Assembly: GCA_021325135.1 (NCBI GenBank)
Contig: JAJPHT010000020.1
Coordinates: 99,721-163,720 of the forward strand
Length of the DNA stretch: 64,000 nt
DNA from: Pseudomonadota bacterium
GTDB lineage: Archaea > Thermoplasmatota > SW-10-69-26 > JACQPN01 > JAJPHT01
Direction: 5' to 3'
Under the pieces are notes generated by a model. It was not told the origin of the DNA. It searched no databases and saw nothing but the letters and a program-made list of their open reading frames with translations. The translations under genes and the position numbers were made by a program. Below are positions 12,235 to 61,897 of this stretch, in pieces. Within the stretch, counting starts at the first letter, position 1; the number at the start of each line of letters is the position of its first letter.

Positions 12235-15168
12235 GTGACGAGCGAGACGCGCGCCGACGTGGCCGCCATCGAGGAGAAGTGGCAGAGGCGCTGGGCGGAG
12301 TCGCATGCCCACGAGCCGCACCCGCAGCCGGGCCGGCCGAAGTTCTTCGCCACCTACCCGTACTCGTACATGAACGCCTTCGCCCACGTAGGGCACGCGT
12401 TCACCATGCTGCGCAGCGACCTCCTGGTGCGCTATCACCGCATGCTGGGGCACAACGTCCTCTTCCCCTTCGCGTTCCACGTCACGGGCACGCCCATCGT
12501 GGCGGCCGCCAACCGCGTGCGCGAAGGGGACGCCCAGCAGATCAAGATCCTCCAGGACCAGGGCATCCCCGCCTCCGACGTGCCGAGGTTCGCGGACCCG
12601 GTCCACTGGGTGCGCTACTTCCCGCCCAAGTGGCGCGAGGACGTCACGCGCCTGGGGGCGCACGTCGACTGGCGCCGCGAGTTCATCACCACCGACCTCA
12701 ACCCGCACTACGACGCGTTCATCCAGTGGCAGTTCCGCAAGCTGGGCGAGAAGCGGCGCGTCGCCAAGGGGCGCCACGCCGTCATCTGGTGCCCCAAGGA
12801 CAACGCGGTGGTGGCGGACCACGACCGCTACAGCGGCGAGGGCGAGACGCCCCAGGAGTGGACGCTCTACAAGATGCCCCTGGAGGCGCCCGAGGCGCTG
12901 GGCCTCCACGGCAAGGTCCACCTCGTCGCGGCGACCCTGCGCCCCGACACCGCGTTCGGGCAGACCAACGTCTGGGTCGACCCCGCGCATCGCTATCACG
13001 TCATGGAGAAGGGCGCGGAGCGCTGGATCGTCAACGCCACGAGCGCGCGCGACCTGCCCTTCCAGTTCGACGACCTGCGCGACACCGGCGCCACGGTCGA
13101 AGGGGCGAAGCTCCTGGGCCACCGCGTCCAGGCTCCCGGCACCGGCGCGTCCATCCCCGTCCTTCCCGCCGCGTTCATCCGCCACGAGAAGGGCACGGGC
13201 ATCGTCACGAGCGTCCCCAGCGACTCGCCCCAGGACCTCCTCTCGCTGCGCGCCGCGCAGGCCGAGGAGGGGGCCATCGGCGCGATCGCGCGTGACATCA
13301 CTCCCATCCCCGTCATCGAGACCGCGAAGTACGGCGCGGAGAGCGCCGCCAGGGCCGTCGAGGAGACCGGCGCCCGCGACCACAAGGACGCCGCCAAGAT
13401 CGCCGAGGCCACCGAGAAGGCGTACCAGGCGGGCTTCTACGAGGGCGTCATGCTGCCCAACGCCAAGGCGTTCGCCGGCATGAAGGTCAGCGACGCCAAG
13501 GAGAAGATCAAGGCGTGGCTCGTCTCGCGCCACGAGGCCGTCGTGGGCTACTGGCCCTCCGCGCCCGTCGTCTGCCGCTGCCTCACGCCCAGCGTCGTGA
13601 AGATCGTCAGCGACCAGTGGTTCATCCAGTACGGCGACGACGCGTGGAAGAAGGAGGCGCACGACGCGCTGGACCGCATGGCGTTCTACCCGCCGCTTGC
13701 GCGCAAGCAGTTCGAGCACGTCGTCGACTGGCTGCGCGGCTGGGCCTGCACGCGCGAGCACGGCCTGGGCTCGCACCTGCCCCAGGACCCGCGCTGGCTC
13801 ATCGAGTCGCTCTCCGACAGCACCATCTACATGGCGTACTACACCGTCGCGCACCTGCTGGAGAAGCAGAGCCCCAGCGGCGGCCCCGCGCGCTACGGCG
13901 TCGACGCCAAGGACCTCTCCGACGCGTTCTTCGACCACGTCCTCCTGGGCAAGGGCTCCGCGAAGGACGCGGCCAGGGGCACCGTCACGGTGGACCTGGT
14001 GGAGAAGGCGCGGGCGGAGTTCGCCTACTGGTATCCGCTGGACTTCCGCAACTCGGGCAAGGACCTGGTGCAGAACCACCTCACGTTCATGGTGTTCAAC
14101 CACGCCGCCATCTGGGACGACCCCAAGTGGTGGCCGCGCTCCATCGGCGTCAACGGCTGGGTCATGGTGGACGGCGAGAAGATGAGCAAGAGCCGCGGCA
14201 ACTTCATCACGCTGCGGCAGGCCCTCGACCAGTACGGCGCCAGCGCCACGCGCTTCGCCCTGGCCTTCGCGGGCGAGGGCGTGGACGACGCCAACTTCGA
14301 CCGAGACGTCGCCGCGCAGAGCGGCCGCAAGCTGCGCGCGTGGGTGGAGCTCGCCACCGGCCCGCAGGAGACGCGCGACGGGCCCCTCACCACCGTGGAC
14401 CGATGGCTCCTGGGCGCCCTGGACCGCCTCGTCGCCGAGACGCGCCAGAACATGGAGGAGACGAACTTCCGCAGCGCCATCAAGACCGGCTTCCACGACG
14501 CGCAGCGCGAGTGGAGCTGGTACGTGCGCCGCGCCGGAGGCACGCCCCACAAGCAGGTGTGGGACCGCTTCTGCCGCGTGCAGAACGCCATGCTCACCCC
14601 CTTCGTGCCCGCCATCGCCTGCGAGGTCCACGAGGCCCGCGGGTGGCCCGGCCACGCGCTGGACGTGGAGTACCCCGCGCCCGCCGGGTCTGCGGACCCC
14701 GCGCTGGAGGAGAGCGAGCGGTTCGTGCGCGACCTCCTGGATGACGTGCGCAACATCCTCAAGGTCACGAAGATCGCGCCCAAGCGCATGGCGCTCACCA
14801 CCGCGCCGTCGTGGAAGCGCAGGTTCCACGAGATCGCCCTCGACCTCGCGCGGCGCAAGGAGCTGACCGTGCCCGCGCTCATGAAGGCCAGCATGGCGGA
14901 CCCCGACGTGCGCGCCAAGGGCTCCAAGGACGCGCCCAAGCTCGCCGCCGACGCCGTGAAGGCCCTGGCCAACCTGGGCGAGGCTGAGCTTGCCGCGCGC
15001 TCCCTCGCGCTGGACGAGACGGCCATCCTGCGCGAGAGCGTGCCCTTCCTCCAGGCGGAGTTCGGCTGCGAGGTGCTCGTCCAGAGCGCGGACGCTCCCG
15101 ACTTGCAGGACCTCGGCGGCAAGGCGCGCTTCGCCAATGTGCGCAAGCCCGCCGTCTTCATGGAGTAG
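12235..15168 (+). CDS. leuS: Leucine--tRNA ligase, archaeal type
   Basis: YPYSYMNAFAHVGH, AATLRPDT, GTGIVTSVPSDSP, ESLSDSTIYMAYY, GKDLVQNHL, KMSKS. Confidence 0.97.
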   Translation: MTSETRADVAAIEEKWQRRWAESHAHEPHPQPGRPKFFATYPYSYMNAFAHVGHAFTMLRSDLLVRYHRMLGHNVLFPFAFHVTGTPIVAAANRVREGDAQQIKILQDQGIPASDVPRFADPVHWVRYFPPKWREDVTRLGAHVDWRREFITTDLNPHYDAFIQWQFRKLGEKRRVAKGRHAVIWCPKDNAVVADHDRYSGEGETPQEWTLYKMPLEAPEALGLHGKVHLVAATLRPDTAFGQTNVWVDPAHRYHVMEKGAERWIVNATSARDLPFQFDDLRDTGATVEGAKLLGHRVQAPGTGASIPVLPAAFIRHEKGTGIVTSVPSDSPQDLLSLRAAQAEEGAIGAIARDITPIPVIETAKYGAESAARAVEETGARDHKDAAKIAEATEKAYQAGFYEGVMLPNAKAFAGMKVSDAKEKIKAWLVSRHEAVVGYWPSAPVVCRCLTPSVVKIVSDQWFIQYGDDAWKKEAHDALDRMAFYPPLARKQFEHVVDWLRGWACTREHGLGSHLPQDPRWLIESLSDSTIYMAYYTVAHLLEKQSPSGGPARYGVDAKDLSDAFFDHVLLGKGSAKDAARGTVTVDLVEKARAEFAYWYPLDFRNSGKDLVQNHLTFMVFNHAAIWDDPKWWPRSIGVNGWVMVDGEKMSKSRGNFITLRQALDQYGASATRFALAFAGEGVDDANFDRDVAAQSGRKLRAWVELATGPQETRDGPLTTVDRWLLGALDRLVAETRQNMEETNFRSAIKTGFHDAQREWSWYVRRAGGTPHKQVWDRFCRVQNAMLTPFVPAIACEVHEARGWPGHALDVEYPAPAGSADPALEESERFVRDLLDDVRNILKVTKIAPKRMALTTAPSWKRRFHEIALDLARRKELTVPALMKASMADPDVRAKGSKDAPKLAADAVKALANLGEAELAARSLALDETAILRESVPFLQAEFGCEVLVQSADAPDLQDLGGKARFANVRKPAVFME

Positions 15169-18460: not shown

Positions 18461-19765
18461 TCACCCCTCGCGTTGCGGCAGCGCGAGCGTGAACGCGGCG
18501 CCCTTGCCGCGCCCTTCGCTCTCCACCCAGACGCGGCCGCCGTGCGCCTCGGCGAGGCCGCGGGAGATGTAGAGGCCCAGCCCGGAGCCGCGCTCCTTGA
18601 CCTCGCCGCGCTCGTGGACCTGCGTGAACGGGTGGAAGAGGCGGCCCATCTCGTCCGGCGTGAGGCCGCGTCCGGTGTCGCGCACGCGCAGGCGCGCCTC
18701 GCCCTCCTCGGCGCAGCCCTCCAGCGTGACGGTGCCTCCGGAGGGCGTGAACTTCAGCGCGTTGGTGAGGAGGTTGTAGAGGACCTGCGTCACGCGCTCG
18801 GGGTCCGCCTGGACGGGCAGGCCCGCGTCGAGGCGCGCAAGGAGGGTGAGCCCGCGCGCCTCGGCGTCGGCGCGGAAGGCGTCCACCGCGGACTGGGCCA
18901 GCGCGCGCAGGTCCACGGGCTGCGGGTCGCAGCGCAGGGCGCCCGCCTCCAGGCGCGCGAGGTCCTTGATGTCGGCGACCAAGCGCTCCATCTGGGCGAG
19001 GTTGCGGCGCAGGAGGACCACGCGCTCGGGGGGCACGGCGCGGTCCGCGGGGATGAGGCTCATCTGGAGCTTCAGCGGCGTGAGCGGCGTCGCGAGGTCG
19101 TGCGCCAGGGTGTTGAGCATCTGCACGCGCAGGGCCTCCTGCTCGCGCAGGCGCGCCGCCATGCGCTCCAGCTCCTCCAGGTCGCGCTCGCGCAGGAGGG
19201 CCGAGTTCACGATGAGGCCCGAGGCGAGGAAGAGGAAGAAGGGGAGCGTGAGGGCGTTGCCCAGGCCGCCGGCCGCGGGGGCCAGGAGGACGGCCACGGC
19301 GCTCGCGCCTAGGACATTGACGCCCGCGATGAGCGCGGCGCCCCAGGAGCCCAGGAGCAGGCTCGCCATGAAGATGGGGAGGGCGAGGAAAAAGAGCGTC
19401 ATGCCGCCGCCCGTGGAGGGGAGCGCGAGGAGCCACGCGCCCCAGATGGCGGCCGAGGTCACGAGGATCGCGAGGTAGGAGGCCACGACATAGCGACGGC
19501 TCAGGCTCACGGGGTAGAGGCCCACCAGGAGCGCGACCGTGCCCGTCATGATCCACAACTGGGGGCCCAGGGGAGGGGGCGCGGCGCCCGGAAGAAGGAC
19601 GGTGAGCGCGGCGGCGAGCGCGCCCAGGGGGATGAGGATGGTGAGAAAAAGAGCGGTGTAACGGGAGCGTCGCCGCGCCTCGGCCCCCTCGACGCTCCGG
19701 GCCGGCTCGATGAGCCGGTCCAGGCGCGCCCGCCAGGCGGGACGTCGAGCGAGGGGCGCCGACAT
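18461..19765 (-). CDS. Membrane sensor histidine kinase
   Basis: About 6 TM helices; LAHDLATPL H-box, NLLTNALKF N-box, DTGRG, GSGLGL. Confidence 0.92.
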   Translation of the reverse strand: MSAPLARRPAWRARLDRLIEPARSVEGAEARRRSRYTALFLTILIPLGALAAALTVLLPGAAPPPLGPQLWIMTGTVALLVGLYPVSLSRRYVVASYLAILVTSAAIWGAWLLALPSTGGGMTLFFLALPIFMASLLLGSWGAALIAGVNVLGASAVAVLLAPAAGGLGNALTLPFFLFLASGLIVNSALLRERDLEELERMAARLREQEALRVQMLNTLAHDLATPLTPLKLQMSLIPADRAVPPERVVLLRRNLAQMERLVADIKDLARLEAGALRCDPQPVDLRALAQSAVDAFRADAEARGLTLLARLDAGLPVQADPERVTQVLYNLLTNALKFTPSGGTVTLEGCAEEGEARLRVRDTGRGLTPDEMGRLFHPFTQVHERGEVKERGSGLGLYISRGLAEAHGGRVWVESEGRGKGAAFTLALPQREG

Positions 19766-19831
19766 TCGGGCCGCTCTCTCGGCGCGGCGCTCTTCAAGGT
19801 GTCGTCGGGACCGTTTCCGGAGTCCGGAGAC

Positions 19832-20014
19832 CTACACCGTGCGGCCGGGGCCGGTGCGCCCGGTGACGAGGTGGTAGATGCCCAGGATGATGCCGACGAC
19901 CACGAGGATCCAGCCGATGTACATCAGGGGGCCCGCCAGCACGCCGAAGAACGGCAGGATGCTGAGGATGAGGCCGATGACGAGCAGGGTGATGCCAAGT
20001 CCGAGCGTTTGCAT
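19832..20014 (-). CDS. Small two-helix membrane protein
   Basis: 60 aa with two hydrophobic helices. Confidence 0.65.
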   Translation of the reverse strand: MQTLGLGITLLVIGLILSILPFFGVLAGPLMYIGWILVVVGIILGIYHLVTGRTGPGRTV

Positions 20015-20147
20015 GCCCTTGGCTGCCCTCGCGGGGGGTTAGCTCGTTGTGGCCGGAAGCTCGGTGGAGGCCTCCTGGTGGGCGCCTGACCGAACGGGTG
20101 CGGCGCGAGCTTCACCCCGATCAGACGCCGTTCTCAGGCCTGAGACC

Positions 20148-20501
20148 ATGGTCGGCCCCTCCTCCCCCCTCCGATCCGAGCGCGTCTACGAAGCCCTCTC
20201 CGACGCCCACGCGCGCCGCGTCGTGGCCGCCTGCGTGCCGTGCGCGAAGTCCGTGAAGCAGATCAGCCAGGAGGCGGACCTGCCGCTCGCCACGGCCTAC
20301 CGGCAGGTGGGCCGCCTGGTGGAGCGGGGGGTCCTCGTCGTGGAGCGGCGCGCGTTCACGCCGGAGGGGCGCATCTGCGACCTCTTCCGCTCGCGCATCC
20401 GCTCGGCGAGGATCGAGCTGGACGCCGCGGGCGAGCGCGTCGCGTGGGAGCCCAACGAGGCGCTCGCGGGGCCGCCCGCGGGCTGGCCGGCCCTGGCGTG
20501 A
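20148..20501 (+). CDS. Winged-HTH transcriptional regulator
   Basis: ALSDAHARRVV...SVKQISQEADLPLATAYRQVGRLVERG. Confidence 0.8.
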   Translation: MVGPSSPLRSERVYEALSDAHARRVVAACVPCAKSVKQISQEADLPLATAYRQVGRLVERGVLVVERRAFTPEGRICDLFRSRIRSARIELDAAGERVAWEPNEALAGPPAGWPALA

Positions 20502-20509
20502 CCGCCGCG

Positions 20510-20827
20510 TCACGGCGCCGACAGCGGCGTGTTGGCCTTCGCCTGCGACATGGCGACCGCGGCGGCGGAGAGCGCCCAGGTGGCGGCGCGCACCGTGCTC
20601 TCGAAGTCGGCGCCCGTCTCGGCCATGTGGCGCAGCGAGTCGGCGGCTTCGCGCGCCTGCTCGGCCGCGCGCGTGGCGACGTGGGTCTCGCGGCCCGGGC
20701 CGGAGTGGAGGAGGGCAAGGGCGCTGGCCTCGTCGGCGAGGATGCTGGCGATGCGCGCGAACTCCCCGGCGCGGGACGCGAGGCGCTTCGGGTCTGACGT
20801 GGTCGGGATGCGGACAGCCTCGGTCAT
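20510..20827 (-). CDS. Hypothetical helical protein
   Basis: GC3-biased ORF, Ala-rich helices. Confidence 0.5.
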   Translation of the reverse strand: MTEAVRIPTTSDPKRLASRAGEFARIASILADEASALALLHSGPGRETHVATRAAEQAREAADSLRHMAETGADFESTVRAATWALSAAAVAMSQAKANTPLSAP

Positions 20828-48138: not shown

Positions 48139-48837
48139 ATGCGAGGGAGGCTTGCGGGAGTGGTCGCCATGCTTGGCCTGGCGCTGCTCGCGCCCGTGGC
48201 GAGCGCCGCGATCTGCACCGTGGCGGGCCCCTACGGGAACGTCCAGTACCAGTGCGACGGGGGATCCGGGGGCGCGGCCAAGTCCAGCGATCCCTGGTGG
48301 GCGAGCCCCACGACGCAGGCCATCGTCGCGTTCGTGGGCCTCGCGGGCTCCGCCATTGCAGGCGGCTACGCGCTCTACCGCGTCCGCGCGCGGCGCAAGG
48401 CGCTCACCGACGCCATCCTCTCCATCGAGCGCGCCTACTCGGAGACCAAGGGCTCGCCCGAGACGGGCATCCCGCGCCTCGTCGCGCTGCGGCAGGACTT
48501 CCGCGCGCTCCACCAGAAGGGGAAGCTGGACGACGGCCACTTCCTGGAGCTTGACAAGCGCGCGACGGAGCACATCGTCCGCCTGCGCGTCCTCGACCTG
48601 GACCGCCGCTTCCTGGGCCTGCCGCCCGGCCTCATGGCCGAGGTGCGCCGCCTGGTGGGCGACGGCCACGTGAGCCAGGAGGACGTGGACCTGGTGGAGC
48701 GCCACGCCGCGGCCTTCCGCGTCCCCGAGCCGCGCCGCGGCGAGCTGGTCGGCCTCGTCCGAAGCTGGTGCACCGACGATGGCGCGGCCGAGGCGTCCGC
48801 CGAGCCGCTACCCGCGCACAAGCTCCTGGTACGCTGA
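48139..48837 (+). CDS. Hypothetical single-pass membrane protein
   Basis: Signal peptide, short Cys-pair ectodomain, TM helix, helical cytoplasmic domain. Confidence 0.65.
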   Translation: MRGRLAGVVAMLGLALLAPVASAAICTVAGPYGNVQYQCDGGSGGAAKSSDPWWASPTTQAIVAFVGLAGSAIAGGYALYRVRARRKALTDAILSIERAYSETKGSPETGIPRLVALRQDFRALHQKGKLDDGHFLELDKRATEHIVRLRVLDLDRRFLGLPPGLMAEVRRLVGDGHVSQEDVDLVERHAAAFRVPEPRRGELVGLVRSWCTDDGAAEASAEPLPAHKLLVR

Positions 48838-49614
48838 GGGCCGCCGCGCGGGGAACGTCGCCTGGTGCTTGCGGAACTCGTCCAGCCGCGCGAAGTCCAG
48901 GTCCGCCACGAGGACCTCCTCCTCGAAGTCGTCCCGGTAGTGGGCCAGCGCGCCCCAGGGCGCTGTGACCAGGGAGCGGCCTGCGATCCCGCCCTGCCCG
49001 TCGGCTCCCGCCCGGCGGAAGCCGCCCGCCTTGACGAGGAAGGCGCCCGCGTCGTAGGCCCGCGCGATGAAGATGGCCTCGCGCGCCTCCCGGGTGTTGT
49101 CCACCGCGCGCCACGGGCTCATGACGGGGTTGAGCAGCAGGCGCGCGCCCATCACCTGCAGGATGCGCGCCGCCTCGGGGTAGAGCACGTCCGCGCACAC
49201 CAGCATGCCCGTCTCGACGCCGCGCACGGGCGCCACGCGCCACGCGTCGCCGCCCACGACCCCCGAGGCGGCCTCGCGCGGCATGGGGTGCGCCTTCTCC
49301 TGCTCCAGCAGGGGGCGCCCCGCGTCGTAGACGACGCCGCGGTTGAGCGTGCCCGCGGGGCCCGGCTCCAGGAGGTTCCCCGCGACGGCGAGGCCCGACG
49401 CGTGGCTGGCCTCCTCGTAGAACGCCCGCAGCGCGCGCCCCAGCGGCGCGGGGTCCGCGGGGGGCGGGCCCGTCGCGAACCAGTATTCCGGGAGCAGGGC
49501 CAGGTCCGCGCCGGCGTCCCGCGCCCGTGATAGCATCGAGCGCGCCGTCGCGGCGTTGGCATCCCACGTCGCGCCGTGGGGCATCTGGAGGGCCGCGACG
49601 CGGAGCCTGTCCAT
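48808..49614 (-). CDS. Carbon-nitrogen hydrolase (nitrilase superfamily)
   Basis: Glu-Lys-Cys triad: LPEYW, QEKAH, VCADVLYPE; GRSLVTAPWG. Confidence 0.9.
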   Translation of the reverse strand: MDRLRVAALQMPHGATWDANAATARSMLSRARDAGADLALLPEYWFATGPPPADPAPLGRALRAFYEEASHASGLAVAGNLLEPGPAGTLNRGVVYDAGRPLLEQEKAHPMPREAASGVVGGDAWRVAPVRGVETGMLVCADVLYPEAARILQVMGARLLLNPVMSPWRAVDNTREAREAIFIARAYDAGAFLVKAGGFRRAGADGQGGIAGRSLVTAPWGALAHYRDDFEEEVLVADLDFARLDEFRKHQATFPARRPSAYQELVRG

Positions 49615-49672
49615 GAGGCATCCTAGGATGCGCCCCCCTATGGGCGTGTCGCTCCGGGGGCCGGGAGCGGCT

Positions 49673-50626
49673 TCAGGAGCCGGCGCGCCGCGCCAGCAGC
49701 CGGGCGATGGCGCGCGTGAGCGGCATCCCCGTGAGATCCTCGATCCAGAGCCAGGCGGGCTCGGAGTTGACCTCCAGGAACACGAGGTCGTCGGAGGGCG
49801 TGCGCACGAGGTCGATGCCGGAGTAGTCGAGCCCCGCGTCGCGCGTCACCTGCACGCAGCGGCGGGCGGCCTCCCGCGGGAGCCTCACGCGCTCGTAGCG
49901 GGTGCGGTGGTCGTAGCGGCGCCAGTCGACGCGCGTGCGCTCCGTCTCCTGGGAGAAGATCTCCACGGCGTGGACGGCGCCGCCCACGACGGTCGCGCGG
50001 ATCTCGGTCCGCTTGGGGACGTAGGCCTGGGCGAGCACGGGCGCGGCGCGCAGCGCTTCGGCGTCCGCGAGGTCGCGGGCCCCCACGCGCTGCGTCAGCA
50101 CGCGCGTGTCGTCGGGGAGGCCCGCGCTGCCGCTGGGCGACTTCACGGCGAGGCTTCGCAGGCGCCGCGCCATCGCGCGCAGGTCCCTGGGCTCGTTGGA
50201 GAGGAGCGTCTCGGGCACGCGGAAGCCGCGGGCGTGGGCCAGGACAAGCTGGTGGAACTTGTCCCCGGCGCGAACCGCGCGGTCGGGGTCGTTCACCCAC
50301 GGCACGCCCAGCGCGCGGCGCAGCGAGGCGAGGCCCGAGAGGGCGGCGGCGCGGGCGTAGCGGCGGGCGGCCGGCGCCGTGCCGCGCGCGAGCCGCGGCG
50401 CGTCGTGGGAGGAGAGCCACCCGACGCGCACGCCGTCGAGGTCCACCAGCGAGGAGCGCGCCCGCGCGCGGCCGGCGCGGTCCAGGCTCACGCTGAGGGA
50501 GCCCTCGGCCGGGAAGCGGCGCGGGTCGAGGACCCGCGGCTCAAGGCCGACGCCGGGCAGCTCCTCCGCGAGGGCCTTGAGGTGCGCGTTCTCCGGGCTC
50601 CCCAGGAGGAGCGCCGCGGAGGTCAT
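49673..50626 (-). CDS. MvdC/MvdD-like ATP-grasp RiPP macrocyclase
   Basis: LDPRRFP, WVNDP..AGDKFHQL..A...GFRVPETLLSN, QAYVPKRTEIR, VDWRR, FLEVN..AWLWIE...PLTRAIARLL. Confidence 0.8.
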   Translation of the reverse strand: MTSAALLLGSPENAHLKALAEELPGVGLEPRVLDPRRFPAEGSLSVSLDRAGRARARSSLVDLDGVRVGWLSSHDAPRLARGTAPAARRYARAAALSGLASLRRALGVPWVNDPDRAVRAGDKFHQLVLAHARGFRVPETLLSNEPRDLRAMARRLRSLAVKSPSGSAGLPDDTRVLTQRVGARDLADAEALRAAPVLAQAYVPKRTEIRATVVGGAVHAVEIFSQETERTRVDWRRYDHRTRYERVRLPREAARRCVQVTRDAGLDYSGIDLVRTPSDDLVFLEVNSEPAWLWIEDLTGMPLTRAIARLLARRAGS

Positions 50627-50730
50627 TGCCCTTCGTTCTTGATGGTCTCCCGGTCGAAGGTGGCGCCCACGGGGCCGAGGTCGGCGCGCTCGGCGCGGGC
50701 GTACAGGAAGGGGGCCGTTCGTCGCTTCAT
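50623..50730 (-). CDS. Putative graspetide precursor peptide (35 aa)
   Basis: MKRRTAPFLYARAERADLGPVGATFDRETIKNEGQ; ATGA overlap with the ligase; T-tract about 28 nt upstream. Confidence 0.7.
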   Translation of the reverse strand: MKRRTAPFLYARAERADLGPVGATFDRETIKNEGQ

Positions 50731-50789
50731 GCGAGACGGGATCGCGCCCTGGAGGGGAAAAAAGGCGCCGGAAGGCCGAGGGCGGACTT

Positions 50790-51746
50790 TCAGAGCGGGG
50801 GGCCGAGGATCGCGGCGGTGGTGGCCGCGTACCAGTGCGGGGCCTCGCGGTCGAAGTCCAGGTGGCGGCCGCGGGGGACGATCTGGACGGCGAGGCGCGG
50901 CGCGCGGGCGTCCAAGAGGAGCTTCGCGTGGGAGACGGGCACGACGGGGTCGTCCTCGGCGTGGAGGACGAACGCCGGGACCTGGAGCGCGTGGCAGTGC
51001 GCGACGGGGCTGCCCGCGCGAAGGAGGTCCTCCAGCGGGACGCCCAGGGCCTGCGCGCGCAGCGTGAGGAAGCCGTGGAAGTCCTGCACCGCGCCCCGCG
51101 TGCGCTCGCGGATGAGCCAGCGGTACATGCGGCCCAGGATGGAGGGATCGCGGGCGGCGCGCGTCGCCAGGGCCAGGTCCGCGAAGGGGCTCCACGCGAC
51201 GACGCGCTCGAAGCGCTCCGAGGCGCCCGGGAGCGTGCCGGCCAGGAGCGCCACCGCGCCGCCCAGGCTCTCGCCCCACACGGTGACGCGCGCGGCGCCG
51301 CTCTCCTGCCGCAGCCAGTCGGCGGCGGCGTGGACGTCGCGCGCCTCCTGCCTCCCGCCGGTGGGCGCGTGGGCGTGGGAGCCGCCGAAGCCGCGCTGGT
51401 CCAGCACCAGGACGTGCAGGCCGAAGCGGCGCCAGAGGTCCAGCGCGCGGCGCTTGCGGGAGGTGTCGTCCTTGGTCTGGAACGTGCCGGGGACCAGGAG
51501 CAACGCGCCCGCGCCGGGCTTGCCGGGGCCGTAGACCGCGGCGAGGCGCGCGCCGTCCTCGGCCACGACGCGCACGGCGCGCCAGGGGCGCGGGTACGGG
51601 TTCACGCGGGAGAAGAAGCGGTGGGCGCGGGGGAGGTTGTGGGCCACGAAATCCAGGCCGGCCTTCACGTCGGCCCAGGCGTCGGCGGCGCGGCGGCGGC
51701 GCGGGTGGTCGAACGGGATGGTCCCGAAGGCGCCGAGGCTCTCCAT
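50790..51746 (-). CDS. Alpha/beta hydrolase (YheT-like)
   Basis: LDQRGFGGS, WGESLGG, LHAEDDPVV, GRH. Confidence 0.88.
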   Translation of the reverse strand: MESLGAFGTIPFDHPRRRRAADAWADVKAGLDFVAHNLPRAHRFFSRVNPYPRPWRAVRVVAEDGARLAAVYGPGKPGAGALLLVPGTFQTKDDTSRKRRALDLWRRFGLHVLVLDQRGFGGSHAHAPTGGRQEARDVHAAADWLRQESGAARVTVWGESLGGAVALLAGTLPGASERFERVVAWSPFADLALATRAARDPSILGRMYRWLIRERTRGAVQDFHGFLTLRAQALGVPLEDLLRAGSPVAHCHALQVPAFVLHAEDDPVVPVSHAKLLLDARAPRLAVQIVPRGRHLDFDREAPHWYAATTAAILGPPL

Positions 51747-60139: not shown

Positions 60140-61897
60140 GTGCTGGCCGGAAGGACGAAGGCGATCATCGGCGCCGTGACGGCGCTCGCCGTGGTCGCGA
60201 CGGTCTCGACGTGGATCGCCGAGCCGCCGCGGCCCACCCCCGCCACCCTGGGCGTCTTCGTCCTCCTTTTCCTGTTCTTCCTCGCCGCGGAGCGCATCAG
60301 CGTGCCGCTCTCGTGGCGGGGCCAGCGCATCACCGCCTCGTTCACCGAGCCCGTCGTCCTCGCGACCCTCTTCTGGCTGCCCGGCACGACGCTCGTCCTC
60401 GCGGCGGCCCTCGCGCGCCTCGCCAGCGCCGCCATCGAGCGCAGGCCGTCCCACAAGACGCTCTTCAACGCCTCGCAGATCGCGCTGGCCATGAGCGCGG
60501 GCCTCCTGGTCTTCCAGGTCGCGCCCGTCGCGCGCATCGCCGCGGCCGCGCTGGGCACCATCGCGTTCACCGTCGTCGTGGACTCCGCCACCGTCCTCGT
60601 CGTGGGCTCCGTGGAGCACGCGTCGTGGCGGCGCGCGCTGCGCGAGCGCTTCCTGCGCGTGGCGTTCATCGAGATGGTCTTCGGCCTGAGCGTCGGCCTC
60701 GCCATCGTCGGCCTGGGCACCGTGCATCCGCTGGCGCCGCTGGTGCTGGCGCCGCTCCTCTGGATCATGCTGCGGCACGCGCGCCTCCAGGCGAAGCTCC
60801 TGCGCGAGAGCGACCTGCATCGCCGCCTCGCGCGCGAGCAGCGCCGCCTCATCGGCATCCAGGACGACCAGCTCATCGCGGAGGGCATCCTGGAGGCGTG
60901 CCACGACATCCTCCAGGTGGGCCGCGCGCGCCTCACGCTGGCGGGCGACCAGTGGACGCGCACGTGGGACCCCGTGCCCGAGGACGCGCCCCCCGAGATG
61001 GGCGTCGCGCTCATGGGCGTCAGCGGCCTCGCCGAGGGGCGCCTGGAGATCTGGCGCCGCCCCGGCAAGCCGCGCTTCGAGAAGGAGGAGGAGGGCCTGC
61101 TGCTGCAATTGGCGGCGCAGACCGAGACGGCGCTGGCCAACGCGAAGACGCTGCGCGAGGCCAACGCCCAGCGCGCGCTCCTCGCGCGGCAGGAGCGCCT
61201 CAGCACGCTGGGCCAGCTCGTGGCGGGCGTCGCGCACGAGGTGAACAACCCGCTCACCTACCTCCGCGGCAACCTGGAGCTGGCGCTCCTGGACATGGAG
61301 GACCTGCGCGCCCGCGCCGCCTCGCCGCCGGACGCTGCGCAGTCGGCCGAGATGGAGCGCCAGATCACCGTCGCGCTCCAGGGCGCCAACCGCATCGGCG
61401 AGATCGTGAAGTCGCTGCGCGCCGTCGCGAGGCAGCGCCCCTCCACCGAGCGCGAGCAGGTGCACCTCAACAAGCTCGTGGAGGACATCGCGACGGTCCT
61501 CAGCGCAGGCCTGCCCGACAACGTGCAGCTCACGGTGGTCCCCGACCCCAAGGACCCGTGGATGCTCGTCCACCCCACGGACCTGCACCAGGTCCTCCTC
61601 AACCTCGCGAAGAACGGCCTGGAGGCCATGGTGGAGATGCCGGAAGGCGAGCTGACGCTGCGCGTGCGCGACGAAGGCGCCTGGTGCTCCATCGAGGTCG
61701 AGGACACGGGCCCCGGCATCCCGCCAGAGGTGCAGGACAAGCTCTTCACGCCCTTCTTCACCACCAAGGGCACGGCAGGCACGGGGCTGGGGCTCGCCAT
61801 CGTGCATGGCATCCTCAAGGACGTCGGCGGGTCGATCCGCTTCGAGACGTCGCCCAAGGGGACGAAGTTCGTGGTGGCGCTACCCAGGACGAGATAG
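60140..61897 (+). CDS. Membrane sensor histidine kinase (NtrB-like core, multi-TM input, GAF-like linker)
   Basis: About 7 TM helices; VAHEVNNPL, QVLLNLAKNG, DTGPG, FTPFFTTK, GTGLGL; 9 nt after the peptidase stop. Confidence 0.93.
   Translation: MLAGRTKAIIGAVTALAVVATVSTWIAEPPRPTPATLGVFVLLFLFFLAAERISVPLSWRGQRITASFTEPVVLATLFWLPGTTLVLAAALARLASAAIERRPSHKTLFNASQIALAMSAGLLVFQVAPVARIAAAALGTIAFTVVVDSATVLVVGSVEHASWRRALRERFLRVAFIEMVFGLSVGLAIVGLGTVHPLAPLVLAPLLWIMLRHARLQAKLLRESDLHRRLAREQRRLIGIQDDQLIAEGILEACHDILQVGRARLTLAGDQWTRTWDPVPEDAPPEMGVALMGVSGLAEGRLEIWRRPGKPRFEKEEEGLLLQLAAQTETALANAKTLREANAQRALLARQERLSTLGQLVAGVAHEVNNPLTYLRGNLELALLDMEDLRARAASPPDAAQSAEMERQITVALQGANRIGEIVKSLRAVARQRPSTEREQVHLNKLVEDIATVLSAGLPDNVQLTVVPDPKDPWMLVHPTDLHQVLLNLAKNGLEAMVEMPEGELTLRVRDEGAWCSIEVEDTGPGIPPEVQDKLFTPFFTTKGTAGTGLGLAIVHGILKDVGGSIRFETSPKGTKFVVALPRTR

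What the first reader, a model, noticed from the sequence alone, without database searches (positions are those of the whole stretch)
49673..50730. Archaeal graspetide (ATP-grasp RiPP) locus with an unannotated precursor
Seen: a 35-aa ORF, MKRRTAPFLYARAERADLGPVGATFDRETIKNEGQ, whose stop overlaps the ATG of an ATP-grasp gene. Its N-terminal half has PFLYARA, and its C-terminal half packs donors (T24, T29, K31) and acceptors (D26, E28, E33). Known: microviridin leaders use PFFARFL to engage MvdC/D ligases, which form Thr/Ser-Asp/Glu esters and Lys amides. The enzyme has MvdC/D-type hallmarks (DxxxFP N-domain, KxxQL, DWRR, FLEVN..WLWIE) rather than RimK/LysX ones. The core does not match the microviridin TxKYPSD motif. 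Inference: a new, minimal macrocyclic peptide class; I know of no characterised archaeal graspetide.
Basis: partly seen in the sequence, partly recalled or inferred. Interest (0 to 1): 0.85.

Follow-up and report, generated by a model that had tools for sequence, protein, structure and literature searches.

The report
Archaeal graspetide peptide-ligase gene pair
A soil archaeon (Thermoplasmatota) carries a movable two-gene unit, a 35-residue peptide and a microviridin-type ring-forming enzyme, that very probably makes a small ring-locked peptide of a family not yet described, although no chemistry has been shown.

Summary
A 35-codon ORF (50623-50730, minus strand) ends in an ATGA overlap with a 317-aa ATP-grasp gene (49673-50626).

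The enzyme groups with graspetide maturases, not RimK/LysX:
- NCBIfam TIGR04187 scores 174 bits, MvdC 134, MvdD 122, RimK 65 and LysX 34.
- The top 32 fold matches are all CdnC, MdnC, PruB, AMdnB, PsnB or MdnB.

The small ORF is a real, conserved gene. I found 32 homologues of 33-50 aa, all from metagenomes or MAGs. They share PFL[YF]x[RH]xE...ATFxRE[TS]xK[NQ][ED]GQ-COOH. Differences in the core are synonymous or fall at four variable positions.

Within the genus, ligase and peptide are present together (2 genomes) or absent together (2 genomes checked). The 1.2-kb pair is a clean insertion between two hydrolase genes that are adjacent in three sister genomes. The flanking hydrolases are therefore not part of it.

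A complex model places the PFLYARAE leader on the ligase's central domain (score 0.83, best control 0.01). This may reflect likeness to solved complexes.

I found no paper describing an archaeal graspetide. This scan had already found the same family in a sister genome (e1-3339941). It is a new family of a known RiPP class.

The parts
50623..50730 (-). Precursor peptide gene, 35 aa plus stop. The leader is roughly residues 1-22 and carries the invariant P7-F8-L9 and E14 (PFLYARAE = 50689-50712). The core is A23-Q35 (50626-50664): ATFDRETIKNEGQ, with T24, E28, K31, G34 and Q35 invariant and T29 and E33 near-invariant.
   Evidence: Translation. Alignment of 32 homologues. Core codon differences are synonymous or confined to variable positions. 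The profile finds it exactly once each in G000 and G001, next to the ligase.
49673..50626 (-). Graspetide-type ATP-grasp ligase (macrocyclase), 317 aa. Its ATG overlaps the precursor stop (ATGA).
   Evidence: NCBIfam: TIGR04187 3e-51, MvdC 5e-39, MvdD 3.5e-35, RimK family 6e-18, LysX 2e-8. PDB sequence matches: MdnB 1.5e-25 down to PsnB 7e-13, then RimK 4e-10. AF2 model pLDDT 90.8. Foldseek top 32 are all graspetide ligases at TM 0.67-0.85; RimK, LysX and ArgX follow at 0.64-0.69.
50731..50789 (-). 59-nt upstream spacer with a T-run (TTTTTT, 50758-50763) lying 28-33 nt before the ATG. I infer a TATA-like promoter element that would give a leaderless or nearly leaderless transcript.
   Evidence: Sequence. 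All six loci with DNA have an A/T-rich element ending 21-33 nt upstream of the precursor ATG, in DNA of 70-73% G+C, and no Shine-Dalgarno sequence. Its function as a promoter is inferred, not shown.
49615..50789 (-). The whole inserted two-gene cassette, about 1.17 kb. It lies between the CN-hydrolase gene (48808-49614) and the alpha/beta-hydrolase gene (50790-51746), neither of which belongs to it.
   Evidence: In same-genus genomes G004 (C245), G001 (C65) and G002 (C34) the two hydrolase genes are separated by about 8-60 nt, about 125 nt and about 400 nt, with no ligase or precursor. G001 carries the cassette elsewhere, at a site syntenic with G000 contig C9, which lacks it.

Best explanation
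This is a minimal, self-contained graspetide (ATP-grasp RiPP) biosynthetic cassette of a soil Thermoplasmatota archaeon.

Inferred: the two genes are transcribed together from a TATA-like element about 30 nt upstream of the precursor ATG. The ATGA overlap couples translation of the ligase to that of the peptide.

Modelled and inferred by homology: the ligase binds the leader (PFL[YF]x[RH]xE, residues about 5-19) on its central domain, as MdnC binds PFFARFL. It then uses ATP to activate the side-chain carboxylates of the two conserved core glutamates (E28, E33). These are attacked by conserved Thr/Ser hydroxyls (T24, T29) and/or the K31 amine. The result would be up to two side-chain-to-side-chain rings (-18 Da each) within the 10-residue stretch T24-E33.

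My preferred topology is two tandem i-to-i+4 lactones, T24-E28 and T29-E33, because the core reads as two TxxxE pentads (TFxRE | TxKNE). A nested T24-E33 / K31-E28 bicycle is the main alternative.

Leader removal, export and biological role are not encoded in the cassette. By analogy with characterised graspetides, protease inhibition is the most likely activity.
For: Ligase family:
- HMM scores favour graspetide maturases over RimK by more than 100 bits.
- The best solved relatives by sequence are MdnB, AMdnB, CdnC, MdnC, PruB and PsnB.
- The top 32 fold matches are these same enzymes.
- In the tree the query lies in a 92-row graspetide-ligase clade (SH-aLRT 98), separate from RimK-like proteins.
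- Catalytic and ATP-grasp motifs are invariant in 26 orthologues.

Precursor:
- The 32-member family has an invariant PFL...E leader and ATF.RE..K..GQ C-terminus.
- Substitutions at ring-candidate positions are conservative (T29S once, E33D once), as expected for nucleophile and acceptor positions.
- In the 13-codon core, differences are synonymous or fall at four variable positions.
- The ORF lies directly upstream of the ligase in all six loci read, with an ATGA overlap in four. The called genes on the P0020 contig, whose DNA could not be read, show the same overlap.
- Peptide and ligase are present together in 2 genomes of the genus and absent together in the 2 checked; neighbouring genes are not conserved.

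Binding model: score 0.83, best of 3 controls 0.01. That mark was reached by 58 of 80 solved complexes and 2 of 110 mismatched pairs. The runs agree in at least 60% of contacts and the partner pLDDT is at least 53. The confident interface is precursor 5-19 with ligase 161-197 and 237-238.

The leader fits the published general graspetide leader motif Phhx(1,2)h (PMC8939145).
Against: No chemistry, expression or product has been shown.

The ligase scores below the curated cut-offs of every NCBIfam graspetide model (174 bits against 350), so it belongs to no curated subfamily.

The complex model used my own alignments and carried ATP and Mg, unlike the tool's calibration. Like complexes are solved (5IG9, 7MGV, 7DRM), so the pass may only show likeness. 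The core (residues 20-35) was not placed with confidence, so ring connectivity is a guess.

No protease or exporter travels with the cassette.

The nearest bacterial ligases (about 40% identity) use quite different precursors. One Thermoplasmatota genome (G078) has a 48%-identical ligase but no recognisable precursor of this family.
Confidence: 0.8

Rival explanations
1. The ligase does not cyclise the peptide. Instead it adds amino acids to it, as a RimK-like poly-Glu tail or as a LysX/ArgX-like ligation of a metabolite to a Glu side chain or C-terminus. The small protein would then be a carrier or a tagged substrate, as LysW is in archaea.
For: The enzyme has weaker but real similarity to RimK, MptN and LysX. 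The peptide's extreme C-terminus (K-N-E-G-Q-COOH) is nearly invariant, which recalls the conserved acidic C-terminus of LysW (my own knowledge). Archaea use LysW/LysX systems.
Against: Graspetide models outscore RimK and LysX by 100-140 bits, and all 32 top fold matches are macrocyclases. The N-terminal domain aligns with that of MdnB. The peptide has a microviridin-like Pro-hydrophobic leader modelled on the leader-binding site. It has no zinc-finger or globular carrier fold. No lysine or arginine biosynthesis genes lie nearby.
Confidence: 0.07
2. The small peptide binds the ligase as an activating or regulatory leader supplied in trans, and the real substrate is encoded elsewhere.
For: Only residues 5-19 are confidently docked. 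Leaders supplied in trans can activate graspetide ligases (my own knowledge of MdnC work). The 48% ligase of G078 has no adjacent precursor.
Against: The C-terminal 13 residues are the most conserved part of the peptide and carry the Thr, Lys and Glu set needed for cross-linking. A pure activator would not need them. No second candidate substrate travels with the cassette when it changes genomic position.
Confidence: 0.05
3. The short ORF is not a gene but a chance open frame or untranslated leader in high-G+C DNA.
For: At 72% G+C, spurious ORFs abound. The same frame stays open upstream to a GTG, giving a 218-aa pseudo-ORF.
Against: There are 32 homologues with conserved length, start region and C-terminus. 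Core substitutions are synonymous or restricted to a few positions. The ORF is coupled to the ligase in every locus and lost together with it.
Confidence: 0.02

Closest known systems
Microviridin system (group 1 graspetides: precursor MdnA/MvdE; ligases MdnC/MvdD for esters and MdnB/MvdC for the amide; PDB 5IG8, 5IG9)
   Same: The ligase has the same fold and motifs (TM 0.76-0.81; E 1.5e-25 to MdnB). The leader PFLYARA resembles PFFARFL and is modelled at the same central-domain site. The core offers Thr and Lys nucleophiles and Glu acceptors.
   Different: Ligase identity is only 22-24%. There is one ligase, not two. The core ATFxRETxKNEGQ does not match TxKxPSDx(D/E)(D/E). There are at most two acceptors, so at most two rings. 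The precursor is 33-41 aa in all but three of the 32 homologues (43-50 aa in those), the host is an archaeon, and there is no acetyltransferase or transporter.
TIGR04187 (SAV_5884-type) ligases, including PruB of prunipeptin (Streptomyces coelicolor, PDB 9BOU)
   Same: This is the best-scoring curated family (3e-51). PruB is the solved structure with the highest sequence identity in the fold search (28-30%, TM 0.77-0.85). It is a single-ligase system.
   Different: The score of 174 bits is far below the family cut-off of 350. The precursor has no similarity to the TIGR04186 or Strep_pep precursor families (no hits).
Uncharacterised bacterial graspetide clusters of soil Myxococcota, Chloroflexota, Gemmatimonadota, Acidobacteriota, Actinomycetota and CPR bacteria (for example Hyalangium and Nannocystis; loci L020-L082)
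   Same: These are the closest ligases outside the archaeal clade (35-44% identity) and form its sister group in the tree. A precursor gene lies directly upstream of the ligase.
   Different: Their precursors are longer, with a ...RTxIxDLxxxGxELxxxxLxLVxGG leader and Asp-rich cores. They have no PFL motif and no KNEGQ end.
RimK / LysX-ArgX with S6 or LysW (ATP-grasp ligases acting on small-protein C-termini)
   Same: They share the ATP-grasp fold (TM 0.64-0.69) and pair a small protein partner with the ligase. LysX/LysW is common in archaea.
   Different: The match is much weaker (65 and 34 bits). The chemistry differs (addition rather than cyclisation). The partner is a folded carrier, not a leader-plus-core peptide.

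Membership tests
Graspetides (ATP-grasp-modified RiPPs) | The ATP-grasp ligase belongs to the MvdC/MvdD/PsnB/CdnC macrocyclase clade rather than to RimK, LysX or glutathione-synthetase-type ligases. | tested here: met
   TIGR04187 174 bits, MvdC 134, MvdD 122, against RimK 65 and LysX 34; best PDB sequences are MdnB, AMdnB, CdnC, MdnC and PruB; top 32 folds are all macrocyclases; the graspetide-ligase clade is supported at 98 and is separate from the RimK-like outgroup.
Graspetides (ATP-grasp-modified RiPPs) | A small precursor gene adjacent to the ligase and conserved with it. | tested here: met
   Searches show adjacency in every locus read. One search gives the 32-member family. One search shows the profile hits only next to the ligase in G000 and G001, with none in genomes lacking the ligase orthologue.
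Graspetides (ATP-grasp-modified RiPPs) | A leader with a conserved Pro-hydrophobic motif (Phhx(1,2)h; PFFARFL in microviridins) that engages the ligase. | tested here: met
   P7-F8-L9 is invariant, followed by Y/F. The motif definition comes from PMC8939145. The complex model puts residues 5-19 on ligase 161-197 and 237-238, with score 0.83 against a best control of 0.01. That mark was reached by 58 of 80 solved complexes and 2 of 110 mismatched pairs, and the pass may reflect likeness to solved complexes. Binding itself is not shown.
Graspetides (ATP-grasp-modified RiPPs) | A core with conserved Thr/Ser/Lys donors and Asp/Glu acceptors. | tested here: met
   T24, E28 and K31 are invariant. 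T29 is T/S and E33 is E/D, both near-invariant. D26 is not conserved.
Graspetides (ATP-grasp-modified RiPPs) | Side-chain omega-ester or omega-amide macrocycles are actually formed (loss of H2O per ring). | not testable with these tools
   This needs co-expression and mass spectrometry.
Microviridins (group 1 graspetides) | Core motif TxKxPSDx(D/E)(D/E) and two dedicated ligases. | tested here: not met
   The core is ATFxRETxKNEGQ. There is only one ligase in the cassette. The precursor has no hit to microviridin or any other precursor model.
NCBIfam TIGR04187 / TIGR04185 / TIGR04184 curated subfamilies | Whole-protein score above the curated cut-off. | tested here: not met
   174 against 350, 134 against 425 and 122 against 475 bits. 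The protein is a relative of these subfamilies, not a member of any of them.
RimK / LysX amino-acid ligases | Best match to, and score above the cut-off of, the RimK or LysX models. | tested here: not met
   RimK family 65 against 143 bits; LysX 34 against 276 bits. These rank below all macrocyclases by fold.

The most novel reading that the evidence does not exclude
This would be the first archaeal graspetide family with a ring topology not yet described: two tandem five-residue Thr-to-Glu lactones, or a nested lactone/lactam bicycle, in a 10-residue core. It would be made by a single ligase from a 33-41-aa precursor expressed on a leaderless archaeal transcript, and carried on a 1.2-kb cassette that hops between variable small-peptide slots of soil Thermoplasmatota genomes. 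The product would serve as a protease inhibitor or competition factor in soil.
Probability: 0.45. Interest if true: 0.65.

Novelty: new member of a known kind. Interest (0 to 1): 0.5.

Why it matters
Graspetides are a large RiPP class known and characterised almost only from bacteria. Archaeal RiPP chemistry has so far been shown experimentally essentially only for haloarchaeal lanthipeptides (bioRxiv 10.1101/2024.10.07.616454). That survey of archaeal RiPP clusters does not mention graspetides.

This locus gives a very small, well-defined and easily testable system. It needs only two genes of about 1.1 kb, and the conserved donor and acceptor residues are already mapped. It could establish graspetide chemistry in archaea and might reveal a new compact ring topology.

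The cassette is inserted at different sites in sister genomes. Other precursor types sit beside related ligases in 9 of 401 Thermoplasmatota genomes searched. Together these suggest that such peptides are traded horizontally among soil archaea. The chemistry implied is still the known kind, so this extends a class rather than founding one.

Tried and rejected
I solved this by querying with an alignment headed by the 41-aa homologue.
I therefore have no RNA evidence and did not run read laying.
- A scan of viral contigs with the ligase alignment found no relatives, so there is no sign that a virus carries the cassette.
- Full-text searches for the peptide motifs (KNEGQ, PFLYAR, TFDRET, TFQRET, PFLFAR) found nothing. 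KNEGQ is absent from the held supplements of PMC8939145, although those files were cut when stored.
- I considered the flanking alpha/beta hydrolase (S33/S9-like) as a leader peptidase and the CN-hydrolase as a tailoring enzyme. I rejected both because they are adjacent to each other without the cassette in three sister genomes, and because other loci have unrelated neighbours.
- I looked for a precursor of this family beside the 48%-identical ligase of G078 and across that whole genome. None was found, so that branch may use another substrate.
- I looked for target-site duplications or repeats at the cassette boundaries by comparison with the empty sites. Nothing convincing appeared: only a 10-nt match around the start codon of the different small gene that fills the slot in G002.
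- TFB genes confirm that the genome is archaeal, but none lies on the window's contig. Assigning the contig to the archaeon rests on its 70-80% nucleotide synteny with three same-genus genomes and on its size (423 kb).

Full report
**What is there.** On the minus strand of the window, a 35-codon ORF (50623-50730) encodes MKRRTAPFLYARAERADLGPVGATFDRETIKNEGQ. It ends in a TGA that overlaps the ATG of a 317-aa ORF at 49673-50626. In this 72% G+C DNA the small frame stays open further upstream, to a GTG that gives a 218-aa pseudo-ORF. Orthologues and the position of the upstream A/T-rich element show that the ATG at 50730 is the real start.

**The enzyme.**
- Pfam sees only a RimK-type ATP-grasp domain.
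- NCBIfam ranks the graspetide maturase models first: TIGR04187/SAV_5884 at 3e-51 (174 bits), MvdC at 5e-39 and MvdD at 3.5e-35. RimK family follows at 6e-18, MptN at 1e-15 and LysX at 2e-8. All scores are below the curated cut-offs.
- Among solved structures the best sequence matches are MdnB, AMdnB, CdnC, MdnC, PruB and PsnB; RimK comes only after them.
- An AlphaFold2 model (pLDDT 90.8) finds the same enzymes as its top 32 fold matches, at TM 0.67-0.85. RimK, LysX and ArgX follow at 0.64-0.69.
- In a tree of 101 sequences the query sits in a 27-row clade (SH-aLRT 95). That clade is sister to a 65-row, mostly bacterial graspetide-ligase clade; the two together have support of 98 and are separate from RimK-like proteins.
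- The tree does not show which way the gene moved between domains.

**The peptide.**
- A same-genus genome (G001) has a 59%-identical ligase preceded by MKRTPFLYARSEPTPRGPAGATFDRETIKNEGQ with the same ATGA overlap. Its record is titled 'Thermoplasmatota archaeon SMAG_U14314'.
- Metagenome contigs with 47-72% identical ligases carry the same kind of ORF directly upstream, called by the original gene callers.
- A profile search of 5.8 billion proteins found 29 small proteins. With two more read from loci, and P0184, the 41-aa peptide of L165 that headed the query alignment, the family has 32 members of 33-50 aa.
- P7, F8, L9, E14, A23, T24, E28, K31, G34 and Q35 are invariant. F25, R27, T29 (one Ser), N32 and E33 (one Asp) are nearly so.
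- In the 13-codon core, six loci differ by synonymous changes or at four variable positions.
- The peptide matches no Pfam or NCBIfam family, and its motifs occur in no searchable paper.

**The unit of inheritance.**
- Neighbours differ from locus to locus.
- In the window the pair lies between a CN-hydrolase gene and an alpha/beta-hydrolase gene.
- In three same-genus genomes those two genes are adjacent and have no cassette between them. G004 has almost no spacer, G001 about 125 nt and G002 about 400 nt. The G002 spacer holds a different small Cys-containing ORF.
- G001 instead carries the cassette at a site syntenic with contig C9 of this genome. There this genome has a small Cys-rich secreted ORF.
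- The precursor profile hits this genome and G001 exactly once each, next to the ligase. It hits nothing in G002, G004 or G078.
- So the 1.17-kb segment 49615-50789 is a self-contained, mobile two-gene cassette, and the flanking hydrolases are not part of it.
- All six loci have an A/T-rich element ending 21-33 nt upstream of the precursor ATG and no Shine-Dalgarno sequence. This fits an archaeal TATA box and a leaderless transcript, which is an inference.

**Host.**
- The genome is archaeal: it has three TFB genes, and its same-genus neighbour is labelled Thermoplasmatota.
- The window's 423-kb contig is syntenic, at 70-80% nucleotide identity, with three same-genus genomes.
- Metagenome contigs carrying the family have 70-73% G+C. 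Their flanking genes are 39-81% identical to genes of this genome, so the family appears confined to this lineage.
- Across 401 Thermoplasmatota genomes, 9 have a ligase-like match at E <= 1e-15. Several of these sit beside other precursor-like ORFs.

**Mechanism.**
- A complex model of ligase, ATP, Mg and precursor gave a score of 0.83 against 0.01 for the best of three controls. That mark was reached by 58 of 80 solved complexes and 2 of 110 mismatched pairs. The runs agree in at least 60% of contacts, and the partner pLDDT is at least 53.
- The confident interface is precursor residues 5-19 against ligase 161-197 and 237-238.
- Like complexes are solved (5IG9, 7MGV, 7DRM), and I supplied my own alignments and ligands. 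The model therefore shows likeness to the microviridin-type leader-binding mode, not proof of binding. The core was not placed.
- From conservation, the core offers two acceptors (E28, E33) and three donors (T24, T29, K31), so at most two rings can form.
- The core reads as two TxxxE pentads. I therefore favour tandem T24-E28 and T29-E33 lactones, with a nested T24-E33 / K31-E28 bicycle as the alternative. This is inference.

**Comparison and novelty.**
- Every defining feature of graspetides that can be tested in silico is met.
- Membership of the microviridin group and of the curated NCBIfam subfamilies is not met.
- The closest bacterial ligases (35-44% identity) use different precursors.
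- The largest published census (PMC8939145) lists a few archaeal ATP-grasp homologues with no precursor assigned.
- A survey of archaeal RiPPs does not mention graspetides. I found no characterised archaeal graspetide.
- This scan had already reported the same family from the sister genome (e1-3339941) and other archaeal graspetide-like loci.
- I rate it a new family (member) of a known class. It is well supported and readily testable, but unproven chemically.

Noticed in passing
L002 (G000 contig C31, about 19524-20662, minus strand); also L004 and L015 in G002: The same genome has a second graspetide-type ligase: 330 aa, TIGR04187 3e-48, 38-42% identical to the first, lying in the bacterial sister clade. 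It is preceded by a different 34-aa ORF, MNEVPLSMRWAEQPKQPLPGLSNFMDNVYLMHTS. That ORF is conserved in G002 as MNDVPLSMRWAEQPKQPLPGLSNFMDDVYLMHTN, and G002 also has a more distant version, MEPTATRWMETRPQANLSGYSLDVILGHVTSL. This is probably a second, unrelated archaeal graspetide family with a single Asp acceptor.
   Followed up: partly
L174 (G205), L175 (G222), L176 (G142), L173 (G102): other Thermoplasmatota families: Graspetide-like ligases in other Thermoplasmatota have other precursor-like ORFs directly upstream. L175 (26% G+C) has MEKPFLFRF... with a Lys/Asp/Glu-rich tail. L174 has ...KPFATEW...TYSDMDESEPKDTFYW. L176 has a three-fold repeat ...APGDDDD[VLI]DF. In all, 9 of 401 genomes searched had a ligase match at E <= 1e-15.
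   Followed up: partly
G000 contig C9 about 14046-14556; G002 C34 about 60240-60641 (L166 about 1100-1501): Where a sister genome holds the graspetide cassette, or where this genome does, the other genome holds a small Cys-rich ORF. In C9 this is a roughly 120-aa secreted protein. In G002 it is a roughly 98-aa Cys-containing ORF that uses the same ...TCTCGC-ATG start context. These look like variable slots for small peptide genes.
   Followed up: no
window 49618-49631: A perfect 14-nt palindrome, GCATCCTAGGATGC, lies 4-17 nt upstream of the CN-hydrolase ATG, in the spacer between that gene and the ligase stop. It may be an operator or a terminator-like element created at the cassette junction.
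   Followed up: no
L172 (G078, another Thermoplasmatota family), ligase at about 1489-2436: A 48%-identical ligase (the P0033 branch) has no precursor of this family nearby or anywhere in its genome. A 21-codon ORF (MQSRAGFRDGRLRNVRWDSKT) overlaps its start by ATGA, and the gene caller extended the ligase by 82 N-terminal residues. Its substrate is unknown.
   Followed up: partly
L005 (G008), L006 (G005), L013 (G015): A third clade of ATP-grasp proteins from the same family or class branches between the RimK-like proteins and the graspetide ligases (SH-aLRT 99). I did not examine its function or partners.
   Followed up: no
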